Sequence record: NC_104190.1
Reading direction: 5' to 3' (one strand)
Length of the DNA stretch: 64,000 bases
Origin: Escherichia phage IME178
Shown: one piece after another, positions 7,084-62,485 of the stretch
Layout of the letters: the number at the start of each line of letters is the position of its first letter
Numbering within the stretch: position 1 is the stretch's first letter
The notes under the pieces: generated by a model
Database searches by the model: none
Seen by the model: only the letters and a program-made list of their open reading frames with translations
What the model was told of the DNA's origin: nothing
Position numbers and translations under genes: made by a program

Positions 7084-7691
7084 TAAAGAATCCTCTGTAC
7101 ACCGCAGCTATTATTTTTGTCTGTGGTAAATGTGGTGATTTTGCCAGTTTCATCATTAACTTGCGCAACCGTCAACTGCCCGTTGAAAACACCGCCAGTA
7201 TCAAGGTAAACACGGTTTTTATAAAGAAGTGGGTAAGGTACTCCAGTATGCCCATGAAACACGAAATCTACCCCTTTAACTTCTGGCACTTCTACCATGT
7301 ATTTTTCTTTAAATCCTGAATAACGCTGGAAATACGGGTGTTCCTCACCATTTTTGGACAAGTAGAAGCCTATTTCTTGGATTACATCTCGATCCCATAA
7401 ATATGGTTCAATATGGTACCCAGGATGGTCATGTGGGTCTTCCTTAGCTGCTTCTACTTGTGCAATAAGATTATCCCATACTGGGGTTTCTACCTCATTA
7501 CCGCATTCTTTGTATGTAAAAGGTACACCACCGTGAACAACACCATACTTCTTACCACGATGTCTAACAGTTAGGAATACTGGCATTTTTTTCAGCCATA
7601 TCTTCGGCGATATTTTTAATGGTGTCTGCATCCAGCTCTTCCATAGCCCATATACCACCGTTATACATCCAATTAGCCCAATCTCCTGCAA
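7083..7691 (-). CDS. Ser/Thr protein phosphatase, C-terminal fragment
   Basis: VVHGGV and FVFHGHT resemble the C-terminal half of lambda-type PPP phosphatases; N-terminal half lies in another frame. Confidence 0.6.
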   Translation of the reverse strand: MQEIGLIGCITVVYGLWKSWMQTPLKISPKIWLKKMPVFLTVRHRGKKYGVVHGGVPFTYKECGNEVETPVWDNLIAQVEAAKEDPHDHPGYHIEPYLWDRDVIQEIGFYLSKNGEEHPYFQRYSGFKEKYMVEVPEVKGVDFVFHGHTGVPYPLLYKNRVYLDTGGVFNGQLTVAQVNDETGKITTFTTDKNNSCGVQRIL

Positions 7692-9027: not shown

Positions 9028-9303
9028 TCATCCAGGAAATTTTTTAATAGCTTCGTGCATAGTTTCTTTACGAAGCTGACGTCCAATCAGAATATGATTA
9101 GCTTCTACTCGACCATTAGGTAAGCGATCTGCCAGAACTACTACAGGAACTTGGCGCACACCAAATTTCTGCATTAATTCTGTATTATCAGTCTCTTTGT
9201 GGACTTCCAAATTATAGTCATTGACTACTTTATCAAATACTGGCTCAAACATTTTGCAAGGGTTGCAAGTGGAACCTTTCAATAGATATACTAATTTACT
9301 CAT
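9028..9303 (-). CDS. thioredoxin/glutaredoxin-like protein
   Basis: CNPC active-site-like CxxC motif near the N-terminus, small size. Confidence 0.6.
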   Translation of the reverse strand: MSKLVYLLKGSTCNPCKMFEPVFDKVVNDYNLEVHKETDNTELMQKFGVRQVPVVVLADRLPNGRVEANHILIGRQLRKETMHEAIKKFPG

Positions 9304-10710: not shown

Positions 10711-10994
10711 ATTGATCTACCTAAAGATCTCTGTTGTGGGGAACAGAGCTTTGTTAAATATTCCTTAAATTTCTCAGAATCGGCTGCATCTACAGGATTA
10801 TCTTTCCAAGCAATACCAATATATCCAGCATAGATATTGTTTAGATTGAAATATGGACAAGTGTATATGTAATTAAAAGTAACGTTCTTAAACGCAGGTA
10901 TATTTAACCCCGTATATTTATTTACTCTTACACTTAAATCCGATGCGTAGTTAAAGCCCTCTAAGTGACGTCTGTATAGCTCAGACGTTTTTAT
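10707..10994 (-). CDS. holin-like protein, C-terminal fragment (no start codon)
   Basis: About 95 open codons ending at a TGA that overlaps the lys ATG; no ATG/GTG/TTG; frame offset from upstream ORF at an A5 run. Confidence 0.4.
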   Translation of the reverse strand: MKTSELYRRHLEGFNYASDLSVRVNKYTGLNIPAFKNVTFNYIYTCPYFNLNNIYAGYIGIAWKDNPVDAADSEKFKEYLTKLCSPQQRSLGRSI

Positions 10995-12900: not shown

Positions 12901-13239
12901 TTAATTGGTGGATAGTAAACTAAGCAACGTTTTTTCTTGTAAATCTTGGCGATAGAAGCAAACCATACCAGTCAGTCGTGAAATATATGAGTATTCTGCC
13001 TCACGGCATTTTGCCAACATATTCCAATCTTTATATGGTACAACAACTACTACGCCATCTTCTCCATTTGTAGCTAATTTCTTTTCAAACTTAAAGTCAA
13101 AGCTACACGGTTGAAGTCCTTTAGGCCAGTCTACATGAGCTTGCTTTAACTCATGAGATGGCTCTGGTTTTATTTCTTCTGCACAGCCTGTGATTGTGAT
13201 TGCGGCTGCGAGCAGTATTCCAAGTTTCCAGTTAAACAC
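12901..13239 (-). CDS. putative lipoprotein
   Basis: Signal peptide with lipobox ITGC. Confidence 0.55.
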   Translation of the reverse strand: MFNWKLGILLAAAITITGCAEEIKPEPSHELKQAHVDWPKGLQPCSFDFKFEKKLATNGEDGVVVVVPYKDWNMLAKCREAEYSYISRLTGMVCFYRQDLQEKTLLSLLSTN

Positions 13240-18984: not shown

Positions 18985-19071
18985 TGGTGCTGGGCACAGG
19001 ATTCGAACCTGCAATGGGATTACTCCTCCTGATTACAAATCAGGTGCATTCAACCATTCTGCCAACCCAGC
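18985..19071 (-). tRNA. tRNA with long variable arm; anticodon ambiguous (UGU or GUA)
   Basis: Acceptor GCTGGGT/GCCCAGC, T-arm GGTTCGAATCC, 15-nt variable region, loop TTTGTAA. Confidence 0.55.
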
Positions 19072-23103: not shown

Positions 23104-23281
23104 ATTAAATTACTTTTTCCAGTTCATCAGCTATGGCTTTGATTTTTTCAAAGTTTACATCACTAATAATGATACCTTCCAGTGACAGAGATATTCTAGC
23201 ATTTTTTCGTAGCAGATTCTTTTATCTGCTCTATCTCTTCTGGAGTAAACTCTCTACGTTCCATAGCTAACCTACATTATT

Positions 23282-23971: not shown

Positions 23972-24259
23972 TTATCTTTCATAATGTATAGCTACATGGT
24001 CGGAACCACAATTGCTACACACTTTCTTACCTGTTTTAGAGTAGTAATCTTGATCACCACATTCATAACAGATACATAATTCTTTTTCTTGTTTTTCGAG
24101 ATCTTCAAATTCTAGATCATTGAAGTCCCCTAGAGTACGGGTGTAAAACCCATCTCCTGAGTCATAGCCTGATTTACCACAATCACACATTTTAAATTCA
24201 CGAAGATGTGTGAAAATGTGCTTGGAACCACAACACTTAAATCTAACTAATCGTTTCAT
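23972..24259 (-). CDS. zinc-ribbon hypothetical protein (95 aa)
   Basis: Several CxxC pairs (CDCG, CYECG, CSNCG). Confidence 0.45.
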   Translation of the reverse strand: MKRLVRFKCCGSKHIFTHLREFKMCDCGKSGYDSGDGFYTRTLGDFNDLEFEDLEKQEKELCICYECGDQDYYSKTGKKVCSNCGSDHVAIHYER

Positions 24260-24498
24260 TTAACACGCTCCGGTAGATCTTCTAGTTTATATTCAGTAGC
24301 CACATTAGCAGCATCTAAAAGTAATCCCATGTGTTTAAGGATTTTAGTGATAGATTCGCCTTCGGCTTCTTCTACGAAAGAACGTAAATGAACAAAGTCA
24401 ATTCCACCGTCCATACCAGAGAAAATATTTAGTAAGCGAAGCATTACCAGCTTACGTTCATTCAATTCTTGTTCTGTCATGTTGCTTCTCCAGTTCAA
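24256..24498 (-). CDS. hypothetical protein (80 aa)
   Basis: ORF downstream of promoter motif at 24500-24545. Confidence 0.45.
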   Translation of the reverse strand: MNWRSNMTEQELNERKLVMLRLLNIFSGMDGGIDFVHLRSFVEEAEGESITKILKHMGLLLDAANVATEYKLEDLPERVK

Positions 24499-24547
24499 TT
24501 TATGTAATTATTATACAGAACTTTTAGAAACTAAGCAACTACATTTT

Positions 24548-24826
24548 TTAAGAATTTGATGCCTTTTTTTTTTTTTTTTTCTTCTTATACTTCCACGTTA
24601 ATGGATTCTGTCGATTGTGAACGCTTGAGATCTTTGTCTCGTCAAAGTTCTTCAATACCATGTAATCACAAGATAATTGTTCTAATGGAATGTGATCACC
24701 GTCAAAAGCGTATACATAAGGCTGTTGACTAGCACTATAATGATAGACTTTGTTAATTCTACGTTTCAGCAACTTATCCGCGCAGTAAATAAAGAAGTTT
24801 TCAGGATGCATCAGCAGCTCCCTCAA
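24548..24826 (-). CDS. hypothetical protein with C-terminal poly-Lys encoded by an A17 tract
   Basis: ORF runs through a 17-nt homopolymer giving KYKKKKKKKK before the stop. Confidence 0.4.
   Translation of the reverse strand: MRELLMHPENFFIYCADKLLKRRINKVYHYSASQQPYVYAFDGDHIPLEQLSCDYMVLKNFDETKISSVHNRQNPLTWKYKKKKKKKKASNS
24564..24580. repeat. 17-nt T/A homopolymer
   Basis: Uninterrupted T17 on the plus strand inside the 3-prime end of a minus-strand ORF. Confidence 0.9.
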
Positions 24827-31059: not shown

Positions 31060-31413
31060 TTACTCTACTTCAATGAAGGTAGAGGCGTTAGACTCGGACA
31101 GAACAAAGTCAACATTTGTTGCAAAGTCCTGATATTCCTCGTCATGCTGCTTAATCAGCTTTTCCAGTTCCAGCGGATCAATCAAGAATGGAGTATTCTT
31201 GAGTTCCAGCAGGTTGAGCTGCATTTTAACTTCATCTTCGGAAGTTTTTCTTATCGCGGGTAGCCATGCTATCCTGCAAACGCTCATATTTAGCATCAAA
31301 CTGTGCTTTCTGCGTATTAAACTTAACCGTGGCGGCATGGAACTGCTTACGCATGTTAGCCAGCAGTTGGGCTTTAAGTTCCATAGAACGCTTAGCTTCA
31401 ATTGCTTCCGCAA
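31060..31413 (-). CDS. hypothetical protein, probable C-terminal fragment
   Basis: Overlaps the upstream ORF by 182 nt in another frame; frames meet at an A5 run. Confidence 0.4.
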   Translation of the reverse strand: MRKQLKLSVLWNLKPNCWLTCVSSSMPPRLSLIRRKHSLMLNMSVCRIAWLPAIRKTSEDEVKMQLNLLELKNTPFLIDPLELEKLIKQHDEEYQDFATNVDFVLSESNASTFIEVE

Positions 31414-32984: not shown

Positions 32985-33006
32985 TAAGAGGGGCTTTCGC
33001 CCCTAT
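32985..33006 (-). terminator. rho-independent terminator
   Basis: Hairpin GAGGGGC-TTTC-GCCCCT flanked by a T-run on the minus strand. Confidence 0.55.
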
Positions 33007-34707: not shown

Positions 34708-34802
34708 ATGTGTACCTCCAATTTATAAAATATATTATATTTAAATTTCACTAAATAAGCAAATGAAATTTAAATATAATAGCCCCGAAGGGGCTATTTG
34801 AG

Positions 34803-52257: not shown

Positions 52258-52857
52258 ATGACTAATGTAAAAGACTTTATTAAACGCTGTCAAGAAGCAT
52301 ATTATCAAGGTATGTCTTTAATCTCTGACGAAGAATATGATCGTCTGATTAAAAGATTTCCATTAGAAGAAGAGATCGGGCCTAAGGGTGATATTCCACA
52401 TCTGTATCGTATGTATTCTTTACAGAAAGTTTATTATAATCGTGGAGATAAACCTCCGTTCAACCCGTTAGGTCAGGTAGAAACTGATAAGTTAGATGGT
52501 TGTGCGATTTCTCTGTTATATATTAATGGAGAATTTGTTCAAGCACTAACTCGTGGTAATGGTATTCTAGGGAATGATGTCACAAGCAACGTAAGATTGC
52601 TGAATATCCCTAAAAAGATTTCCCAAAAAGTACCTACTCAAATCACTGGTGAAGTTCTAATTACAAAAGAAGTAGAAAATAAACGTAACTTTGCCTCTGG
52701 TGCTATTAACCTCAAAGATAGCGATGATTTCGTACAACGTATTGGGGAAGGTGGTTTAATCTTCGTTGCATATGGTATCCAGTGTTCTGCTGAATCTGTA
52801 GGTATTACAGAAGCGTACTTAAAAGATATGCTCTGGCTGGAGAATGAGACTTCTTAA
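52258..52857 (+). CDS. lig: NAD-dependent DNA ligase, adenylation-domain piece
   Basis: KxDG adenylation motif ([10 protein letters not shown]) and LigA-like N-terminal Ia/NTase sequence. Confidence 0.8.
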
Positions 52858-56518: not shown

Positions 56519-57294
56519 GTAGAATAACAGAACTACTTGATCTGAAAGGCATTGAATATAAAGACACAGGTGGGGACATCCTCATCTGTTGTCTCAATCC
56601 AGATCATGACGATAAACACCCAAGTTTGCGTATTGATCCTGAAACAGGTATTATGCACTGCTTGAGTTGTGGCTTCGGTAAAGGTATACCGAGCATTTAC
56701 CATTATTTTAATGAGACTCAGTACCGACAGTCCCCAAGGCTATCGCAAGTACGTAAAAAGATTTCAGAGATTAGGAATGGGTCAACGAATCTTGCAATTC
56801 CTGAATCTGCTTACCTTTTCGAAGGTGATTTCCGAGGTATAAGTTCTAAGACCTTGAAGAAATATTTTGCTTTCCAACACCAAGCAGACTGGGAAGGCAG
56901 AATTGTATTCCCAATCACAGATGCTGTTGGACGCAATATCCTATTTTTGGGTCGTTCTATAAACAGTTCTGCCCCTCCTAAATACTTAGTAAAACCAAAA
57001 CAAGTTTCACCACCAATTTTTCCTGTACGATATAATACCCCAATTCTTATTCTAGTTGAAGGTATCTTTGATATGCTGAATCTAGAGGATAATGGTATAG
57101 ACTATGCTTCTTGTTGCTTCGGTACACATCAGTTTACTTCAGATAACATTGCAGATAAGTTTAGTCCGTATATTATTGCTGGTGTTAAAGTTGTTGTTAT
57201 CTTACTAGATAATGATGCTTCTGGTAATAAAGCTGCACAAGCACTGGCTAAGCTAATTCGTACAAAAAACGCGTTTAACACCTGTAGTTGCTAA
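56515..57294 (+). CDS. DnaG-like DNA primase (zinc-binding plus TOPRIM), truncated by frameshift
   Basis: Zn ribbon CCLNPDH...HCLSCGFG, TOPRIM ILVEGIFD and LLDNDASG; ORF stops just after an A6 run. Confidence 0.75.
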   Translation: MSRITELLDLKGIEYKDTGGDILICCLNPDHDDKHPSLRIDPETGIMHCLSCGFGKGIPSIYHYFNETQYRQSPRLSQVRKKISEIRNGSTNLAIPESAYLFEGDFRGISSKTLKKYFAFQHQADWEGRIVFPITDAVGRNILFLGRSINSSAPPKYLVKPKQVSPPIFPVRYNTPILILVEGIFDMLNLEDNGIDYASCCFGTHQFTSDNIADKFSPYIIAGVKVVVILLDNDASGNKAAQALAKLIRTKNAFNTCSC

Positions 57295-62264: not shown

Positions 62265-62485
62265 ATGATGTATAATATACACATAAATTTGAGAGAGAAA
62301 GTTTCGGATTGATAAGAAAGTCCGAAGCAGAAAAATAAAAAATTTTAGTTGCTAAATTCTCTCGAAATCTAGTATAATATATACATAAATTCGAGGAGAA
62401 AATAAAAATTAAATTCTTCGATTATGAAAAGCTATACTTACTAGCTAGAGGAAATTCCGACCTAATTATTAAGCTATTCAAAAGA

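What the first reader, a model, noticed from the sequence alone, without database searches (positions are those of the whole stretch)
24548..24826. 17-nt A/T homopolymer inside a coding sequence, giving a poly-lysine tail
T17 on the plus strand (24564-24580) sits in the 3-prime end of a minus-strand ORF and encodes KYKKKKKKKK. Tracts this long are very prone to polymerase and ribosome slippage, so the C-terminus is probably heterogeneous and the tract length is uncertain in any assembly.
Basis: seen in the sequence. Interest (0 to 1): 0.5.

Follow-up and report, generated by a model that had tools for sequence, protein, structure and literature searches.

The report
Private homopolymer run, probably sequence error
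The 17-T run really is in this T5-like phage sequence, but no other sequenced relative has it, and the same sequence carries about nine other private one-base homopolymer frameshifts that break conserved genes such as holin, primase and ligase, so it is most likely a sequencing or assembly error (or error-inflated) rather than a biological device.

Summary
T17 lies at 24564-24580, inside the 3' end of a minus-strand ORF that ends ...WKYKKKKKKKKASNS*. It is the only homopolymer of 8 or more in the 64 kb.

The window is a T5-like phage (Tequintavirus), and the ORF is the homolog of T5 ORF067 (PHROG 5876, function unknown). In all 35 relatives whose site was read directly, and by matched length and identity in 403 GenBank records, the site is an interrupted 9-nt TTTCTTTTT or a 1-3 nt variant of it. 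The protein then ends ...KKKKKGIKFLKNVVA*. The window therefore carries a C>T change plus 8 extra T. This is a frameshift, and the ancestral tail is still intact out of frame.

The same window holds eight other private +1 insertions in A/T runs of 5-7 nt and one private -1. These split the Ser/Thr phosphatase, thioredoxin, holin, o-spanin, two small ORFs, ligase A and primase. No relative shares them.

So the sequence has systematic homopolymer-length errors, and T17 is its extreme case. If the run is real, known RNA-polymerase slippage and ribosome sliding would give mixed C-termini, with +1 slippage restoring the ancestral tail. Nothing suggests a selected function. Interest is low.

The parts
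24564..24580 (-). A17 on the sense (minus) strand, T17 on the + strand. It equals the ancestral AAAAAGAAA with G>A plus 8 extra A.
24548..24811 (-). Homolog of T5 ORF067 (AAX12004.1; PHROG 5876, function unknown), 87 aa from the ATG at 24811. The C-terminal 10 codons are replaced by ASNS* through the frameshift.
   Evidence: (matches PHROG profile positions 1-81 of 90)
24531..24563 (-). Ancestral tail GGC ATC ... GCT TAG (GIKFLKNVVA*), intact but out of frame. It would be read from transcripts or genomes with A15, A18 or A21.
24510..24538 (-). T5-type early promoter (-35 TTGCTT 24538-24533, 17-nt spacer, -10 TATAAT 24515-24510; start site about 24503), overlapping the ancestral tail. The A17 lies at about -61 to -77 and an A6 at -42 to -47.
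   Evidence: T5P18 annotated in AY587007; AKFV33 promoter annotation
24256..24480 (-). Downstream gene served by that promoter (PHROG 8408, function unknown; homolog of AKFV33 orf069).
7586..7592 (.). Private +1 (T7 vs T6). Splits the Ser/Thr protein phosphatase gene at about residue 120 of 287.
9040..9045 (.). Private +1 (T6 vs T5). Removes the last 7 residues of the thioredoxin homolog.
10988..10992 (.). Private +1 (T5 vs T4). Splits the holin gene at about residue 125 of 218.
12930..12935 (.). Private +1 (T6 vs T5). Shifts the o-spanin tail. It is also the A-run just upstream of a TTGCTT -35 box.
23202..23207 (.). Private +1 (T6 vs T5). Splits the homolog of AKFV33 orf066 (52 aa).
31245..31249 (.). 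Private +1 (T5 vs T4). Splits the homolog of AKFV33 orf083 / T5.085 at residue 151 of 212.
52848..52849 (.). Private -1 (GAGAAC to GAGAC). Splits ligase subunit A at residue 197 of 323.
57264..57269 (.). Private +1 (A6 vs A5). Splits DNA primase at residue 251 of 296.
62337..62342 (.). Private +1 (A6 vs A5), intergenic, just upstream of a TTGCTA -35 box.

Best explanation
T17 is a homopolymer-length anomaly private to this one sequence. It most likely arose, or was inflated, during sequencing, amplification or assembly. The window is a T5-like phage. The site is the lysine-rich C-terminal stretch of a small accessory early gene (T5 ORF067 family), and in the relatives whose DNA was read it is AAG AAG AAA AAG AAA or a 1-3 nt variant of that. 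The window differs by one G>A change (synonymous, AAG to AAA) and 8 extra A. This shifts the frame and swaps the conserved tail GIKFLKNVVA for ASNS. The same sequence shows a systematic excess of one-base over-calls in A/T runs that break conserved and essential genes, so its homopolymer lengths cannot be taken at face value. T17 is the largest such event, at the most A-rich site. Shown: the run is present, it is unique, it causes a frameshift, and private frameshifts occur elsewhere in the window. Inferred: those frameshifts are errors and not mutations, and T17 belongs to the same error process.
For: Uniqueness of the run: 403 GenBank T5-like records match a 121-nt query centred on the tract, none above 91.7% identity, and the top 60 all match over 113-114 nt instead of 121. 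The site was read directly in 25 loci: 21 have AAGAAGAAAAAGAAA, 2 have a one-codon deletion, 1 has an A>G change and 1 has +1 A. It was also read in 10 further contigs from NCBI and Logan assemblies, and all have the ancestral sequence, including the closest (L173, 97.5% identical, which shares the flanking TGGAAG allele). T10 or longer at this site was not found in IMG/VR or GTDB genomes, and the JGI metagenome hits were all unrelated sequences. The exact protein is not on record. The three protein clusters in the database all end KK[KR]KKGIKFLKNVVA. Systematic problem: 58.4 kb was compared with two references per segment. This found eight private +1 insertions in A/T runs and no private deletions in A/T runs of 4 or more. 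tblastn shows frame splits in phosphatase, thioredoxin, holin, o-spanin, orf066 and orf083 homologs, ligase A and primase, with 91-100% amino-acid identity between the window and the closest comparator on both sides of each junction where both sides align. At the primase and holin sites the best of about 438 GenBank records are identical to the window except for the extra base. Ten contigs that encode an identical DnaB all have intact primase and ligase and lack the private indels. Homopolymer frameshift errors are a documented feature of phage assemblies (PMC10438801).
Against: The other private events are +/-1 in runs of 4-6, whereas T17 needs +8 and a base change. No common platform is known (from my own knowledge) to over-call an interrupted T3-C-T5 by 8. 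Some real expansion, for example a real G>A change creating A9 that then slipped, may therefore underlie it. No reads are available, so error and mutation cannot be separated directly. The gene is dispensable (absent from the matched ~19-kb tRNA-region segment of PK7, 98% identical), so a real frameshift here would be tolerated, unlike those in primase or holin.
Confidence: 0.62

Rival explanations
1. The expansion is real, recent and selectively neutral. A synonymous AAG>AAA change made an uninterrupted A9 in the Lys stretch. Replication slippage then expanded it to about A17 in this isolate. The frameshift of the last 10 codons is tolerated because the gene is accessory. Host RNA polymerase slippage and ribosome sliding then give a mixture of three C-termini. 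Transcripts with A18 or A15 restore ...K(n)GIKFLKNVVA, and those with A16 or A19 give ...RHQILKKCSCLVSKSSV.
For: The required substitution is synonymous and the ancestral site is already purine-only. Small length changes occur at or near this site in other deposits: Kenya-K36 has +1 A, and NBSal003 and oldekolle have -1 in the A6 downstream. The gene is missing from the matched ~19-kb tRNA-region segment of the close relative PK7. The products for each tract length were computed. T5 genes are transcribed by host sigma70 RNA polymerase (PMC7472727). Slippage on long A/T runs yields all three frames (PMC1088944), and E. coli ribosomes slide robustly at A11 or longer (PMC4363877). A +8 change is not a typical base-calling error.
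Against: It is a singleton among more than 400 relatives. It sits in a sequence with about nine other private homopolymer frameshifts that cannot all be real in a viable phage, so the prior for any private homopolymer length in this sequence being real is low.
Confidence: 0.3
2. The tract is a selected device. It could be a programmed transcriptional-slippage or phase-variable site that lets one gene make alternative C-termini. It could also be an upstream A-tract that tunes the early promoter 60-77 bp downstream of it.
For: All three frames downstream are open for 4, 10 and 17 codons. The run lies immediately upstream of a T5 early promoter of the TTGCTT-17-TATAAT type.
Against: There is no conservation of the run in any relative, whereas programmed slippage sites and contingency tracts are conserved or polymorphic across strains. 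The tract lies at -61 to -77, outside the -40 to -60 UP-element zone (own knowledge of the UP-element consensus). That zone is already occupied by a conserved A6. The alternative-frame 'extension' is simply the ancestral reading frame.
Confidence: 0.04

Closest known systems
Homopolymer-length errors in phage genome assemblies that create spurious frameshifts (e.g. PMC10438801)
   Same: The indels are private to one assembly and confined to homopolymer runs. They split otherwise near-identical conserved genes, with several per genome.
   Different: Typical errors are +/-1 or 2 nt. Here one event is +8 with loss of an interrupting base, which is unusually large.
Transcriptional slippage sites (Thermus thermophilus dnaX A9, IS-element A/T runs; Baranov et al. 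2005, PMC1088944)
   Same: A run of A of 9 or more in the sense strand near the 3' end of a gene, with short alternative-frame tails. A host-type RNA polymerase would be expected to stutter on it.
   Different: Programmed sites are conserved among homologs. This run is absent from every homolog, and the useful alternative frame is just the ancestral frame.
Ribosome sliding on lysine-encoding poly(A) (Koutmou et al. 2015, PMC4363877)
   Same: A17 encoding consecutive AAA lysines exceeds the A11 length at which E. coli ribosomes slide and terminate out of frame.
   Different: That is a general property of any such run, not a system. Nothing was measured here.
Phase-variable (contingency) homopolymeric tracts
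   Same: A long mononucleotide run within a coding region, where length changes switch the reading frame.
   Different: Contingency tracts are maintained as tracts and vary in length between strains. Relatives here have an interrupted, stable 9-nt sequence.
T5 ORF067 / PHROG 5876 small early proteins of the tRNA-gene region
   Same: The ORF is a clear member over its conserved core, with the same position after tRNA-Phe and a basic C-terminal patch.
   Different: The last 9 profile positions are missing because of the frameshift, and the basic patch is lengthened from K5 to K8.

Membership tests
Assembly/sequencing homopolymer artefact | The length variant is private to one sequence among close relatives | tested here: met
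   None of 403 GenBank records, 35 directly read loci, or the IMG/VR, GTDB and JGI scans has it.
Assembly/sequencing homopolymer artefact | Accompanied by other private homopolymer indels that break conserved or essential genes | tested here: met
   Eight private +1 in A/T runs and one -1. Phosphatase, thioredoxin, holin, o-spanin, orf066 and orf083 homologs, ligase A and primase are split. None is shared by about 438 records or by 10 contigs with an identical DnaB.
Assembly/sequencing homopolymer artefact | Reads or independent resequencing give a different length | not testable with these tools
   No reads are available. Exact-protein look-ups did not find the source or an independent assembly of the same phage.
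Programmed transcriptional slippage site | Uninterrupted A or T run of about 9 or more in the coding sequence | tested here: met
   A17 in the sense strand.
Programmed transcriptional slippage site | The run is conserved among homologs | tested here: not met
   Homologs whose DNA was read have AAGAAGAAAAAGAAA or a 1-3 nt variant. More distant homologs have mixed Lys/Arg basic tails.
Programmed transcriptional slippage site | mRNA population heterogeneous in run length, with two or more products detected | not testable with these tools
   Needs RNA and protein data.
Phase-variable contingency tract | Tract length polymorphic between strains or within populations | tested here: not met
   Relatives share one interrupted sequence. 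The only variants are a codon deletion in 2 loci, an A>G change in 1 and +1 in 1 record.
UP element / upstream A-tract of a sigma70 promoter | A/T-rich element within about -40 to -60 of the start site | tested here: not met
   The A17 maps to about -61 to -77. The conserved A6 at -42 to -47 occupies the proximal UP position. The positions of the UP subsites are from my own knowledge.
PHROG 5876 / T5 ORF067 protein family (the ORF, not the tract) | Significant profile match over the full length | tested here: inconclusive
   E = 8e-55, but only profile positions 1-81 of 90 match. The missing part is the frameshifted tail.

The most novel reading that the evidence does not exclude
The A17 run is real and hypermutable, and it acts as a slippage switch in a T5-like phage. 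Host RNA polymerase stuttering would make three C-terminal isoforms of the ORF067-family protein from one gene, with +1 slippage regenerating the ancestral tail. The length of the A-tract would also modulate the adjacent early promoter.
Probability: 0.04. Interest if true: 0.4.

Novelty: not a real feature. Interest (0 to 1): 0.08.

Why it matters
The main value is as a quality flag. This sequence should not be used for gene calls or for frameshifting claims at homopolymers without the reads, because nine genes (about eight beyond ORF067), including holin, primase and ligase A, are split by private one-base indels. If the tract were confirmed in reads, it would be a modest natural example of a frameshift mutation that transcriptional slippage partly rescues in a dispensable phage gene. 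That phenomenon is known and would not be a new mechanism.

Tried and rejected
- A loose pattern scan of IMG/VR (GATGCCTTT...TTCTTAT) returned only chance matches in unrelated contigs. It was replaced by protein-guided loci and a stricter T10 pattern. The 11 metagenome hits to that pattern were all unrelated sequences.
- No intrinsic terminator lies near the tract. The simple promoter scan missed the T5 promoter because its TTGCTT -35 box matches only 3 of 6 consensus positions. The promoter was taken from the T5 and AKFV33 annotations and from the sequence.
- RNA-derived or transcription-linked origin: all the private insertions add A to the sense strand. However, 97% of A/T runs of 6 or more and 75% of runs of 5 or more are sense-strand A anyway, so the bias is not significant.
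- Mutator-polymerase idea: the window's DNA polymerase has only three conservative private substitutions, V131, E144 and S300.
- Protein function: there is no Pfam hit and the PHROG has unknown function. A search of 1.84 billion representatives found only 7 small relatives plus one spurious repeat protein. The AlphaFold model had mean pLDDT 58, so no fold search was run.
- Exact-protein look-ups for the source or a near-isogenic genome failed for ORF067, the helicase and NrdA. The DnaB and NrdD look-ups gave 95-97% relatives only.

Full report
**What is there.** The + strand carries T17 at 24564-24580. It lies in the 3' end of a minus-strand ORF spanning 24548-24826 from a TTG. The likely start is the ATG at 24811, behind a GAGGGAG ribosome-binding site. 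The ORF ends ...NPLTWKYKKKKKKKKASNS*. It is the only homopolymer of 8 or more in the 64-kb window. The next longest are one T7 and the A6/T6 runs. Base composition predicts 1.3e-4 T runs of 17 or more.

**Context.** The window is a T5-like phage of the genus Tequintavirus. The best matches are AKFV33 at 96.7% and PK7 at 98.2%, and no identical record exists. The ORF sits in the tRNA-gene region directly after tRNA-Phe. It is the homolog of T5 ORF067 (AAX12004.1) and belongs to PHROG 5876, of unknown function, with no Pfam match. A deep search found only a handful of small relatives in T5-like phages. They share a conserved core and a basic C-terminal patch. A structure model was of low confidence (mean pLDDT 58). 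The gene is accessory, because PK7 lacks it in the matched ~19-kb tRNA-region segment.

**The tract is derived and unique.** In T5, EC100, NBSal003, EH4, smaug and PRF-SP13 the site reads TTTCTTTTT or a close variant.
- Of the 25 loci where the site was extracted, 21 have sense-strand AAGAAGAAAAAGAAA, 2 lack one codon, 1 has an A>G change and 1 (Kenya-K36) has one extra A.
- Ten more contigs from NCBI and Logan assemblies that carry the identical downstream gene all have the ancestral sequence. This includes the closest (97.5% identical), which shares the window's flanking allele.
- A 121-nt query centred on the tract matched 403 GenBank records, none above 91.7% identity. The top 60 all matched over 113-114 nt.
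- No T10 or longer at this site was found in IMG/VR or GTDB genomes. The metagenome hits were unrelated sequences.
- The window's exact protein is not on record.
- All three protein clusters end KK[KR]KKGIKFLKNVVA.

The window therefore has one G>A change on the sense strand (synonymous, AAG>AAA) plus 8 extra A. Eight is not a multiple of three, so the tail GIKFLKNVVA* is replaced by ASNS*. The ancestral tail remains intact in another frame. The PHROG profile accordingly matches only positions 1-81 of 90.

**Overlap with a promoter.** The ancestral tail overlaps a T5 early promoter. T5 annotates it as T5P18 and AKFV33 annotates it by the consensus TTGCTT-N17-18-TATAATA. In the window the -35 box is at 24538-24533 and the -10 box at 24515-24510. 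A conserved A6 lies at -42 to -47, and the A17 lies at about -61 to -77. This double constraint explains why the tail's DNA is so conserved. The A17 lies outside the usual UP-element zone (positions from my own knowledge).

**The decisive finding.** To test assembly quality I compared the window with two references per segment (JLBYU40, PK7, AKFV33, SPLA5b and FGS009; 58.4 kb doubly covered). I kept only indels where both references agree against the window. Eight are +1 insertions in A/T runs:

| Site | Run in window | Effect |
|---|---|---|
| 7586 | T7 | Ser/Thr phosphatase split at ~120/287 |
| 9040 | T6 | thioredoxin loses its last 7 residues |
| 10988 | T5 | holin split at ~125/218 |
| 12930 | T6 | o-spanin tail shifted |
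| 23202 | T6 | AKFV33 orf066 homolog split |
| 31245 | T5 | orf083/T5.085 homolog split at 151/212 |
| 57264 | A6 | primase split at 251/296 |
| 62337 | A6 | intergenic |

There are no private deletions in A/T runs of 4 or more. One private -1 at 52848 splits ligase A at residue 197 of 323.

tblastn confirms the frame splits. Against the closest comparator, amino-acid identity is 91-100% on both sides of each junction where both sides align. The large genes (polymerase, helicases, NrdA, NrdD, origin-binding protein) are intact. At the primase and holin sites, the best of about 438 GenBank records are identical to the window over 121 nt except for the extra base. Ten contigs that encode an identical DnaB all have an intact primase and ligase and lack the private indels. 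A viable phage carrying all of these lesions is not plausible. Homopolymer frameshift errors are well documented in phage assemblies (PMC10438801). The private differences at 33000 and 33989 are shared with another contig, so they are natural variation.

**Alternatives examined.**
- All the insertions add A to the sense strand, which could hint at an RNA-level origin. But 97% of A/T runs of 6 or more are sense-strand A anyway, so there is no real bias.
- The window's DNA polymerase has only three conservative private substitutions, so there is no sign of a mutator enzyme.
- There is no terminator at the site.

**Mechanism if the run were real.** T5 genes are transcribed by host sigma70 RNA polymerase (PMC7472727). 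In many bacterial genomes selection against A/T runs in coding regions becomes evident at about 9 nt, and slippage on such runs gives mRNAs in all three frames (PMC1088944). E. coli ribosomes slide robustly at A11 or longer (PMC4363877). By computation:
- A17, A14 and A20 give ...K(n)ASNS.
- A15, A18 and A21 give the ancestral ...K(n)GIKFLKNVVA.
- A16 and A19 give ...K(n)RHQILKKCSCLVSKSSV, the frame also read in Kenya-K36.

**Verdict.** The best explanation (confidence 0.62) is that T17 is the extreme member of a set of homopolymer-length errors in this sequence. A real G>A change or a modest real expansion may underlie it. The main rival (0.30) is a real, recent, neutral slippage expansion in a dispensable gene. 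A selected slippage or promoter device is very unlikely (0.04), because the run is absent from every relative. The one unexplained point is the size of the event: +8 with loss of the interrupting base is larger than typical base-calling errors. Only reads or resequencing can settle this.

Noticed in passing
window 7586, 9040, 10988, 12930, 23202, 31245, 52848, 57264, 62337: Private one-base homopolymer indels (eight +1 in A/T runs, one -1) split the Ser/Thr phosphatase, thioredoxin, holin, o-spanin, two small ORFs, ligase A and primase. None is present in any relative examined.
   Followed up: yes
window 34790-34793: Private G4 (G3 in relatives) within GCCCCGAAGGGGC makes a perfect 5-bp GC hairpin in an intergenic spot. 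It could be another over-call or a real improvement of a terminator stem.
   Followed up: partly
window 23972-24259 (-): A 95-aa ORF matches two different PHROGs end to end (7042 over residues 1-60, 34563 over residues 56-95). A 95-aa ORF is called at the same position in one Logan contig (L178) and a 98-aa ORF in L173, so it is probably a natural mosaic variant and not an error.
   Followed up: partly
L150 (Kenya-K36) and L003 (NBSal003); protein P0011 (oldekolle): Other deposited T5-like genomes also show 1-nt length differences here. Kenya-K36 has +1 A in the Lys stretch, giving a 97-aa product in the third frame. NBSal003 and oldekolle have -1 in the A6 about 20 nt downstream, giving ...GIKFLKM*.
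   Followed up: partly
L152 (Salmonella phage PK7): The closest relative over the tRNA region (98%) has no ORF067 homolog in the matched ~19-kb segment, so the gene is dispensable.
   Followed up: partly
window 12930-12935 and 62337-62342: Two of the private +1 events fall in the A-run immediately upstream of T5-type -35 boxes (TTGCTT and TTGCTA), which is the proximal UP-like position of early promoters.
   Followed up: no
window 18985-19071 (-): ARAGORN calls an 87-nt tRNA-Thr here, whereas AKFV33 annotates a 75-nt tRNA-Thr in the corresponding region. The length difference was not examined.
   Followed up: no
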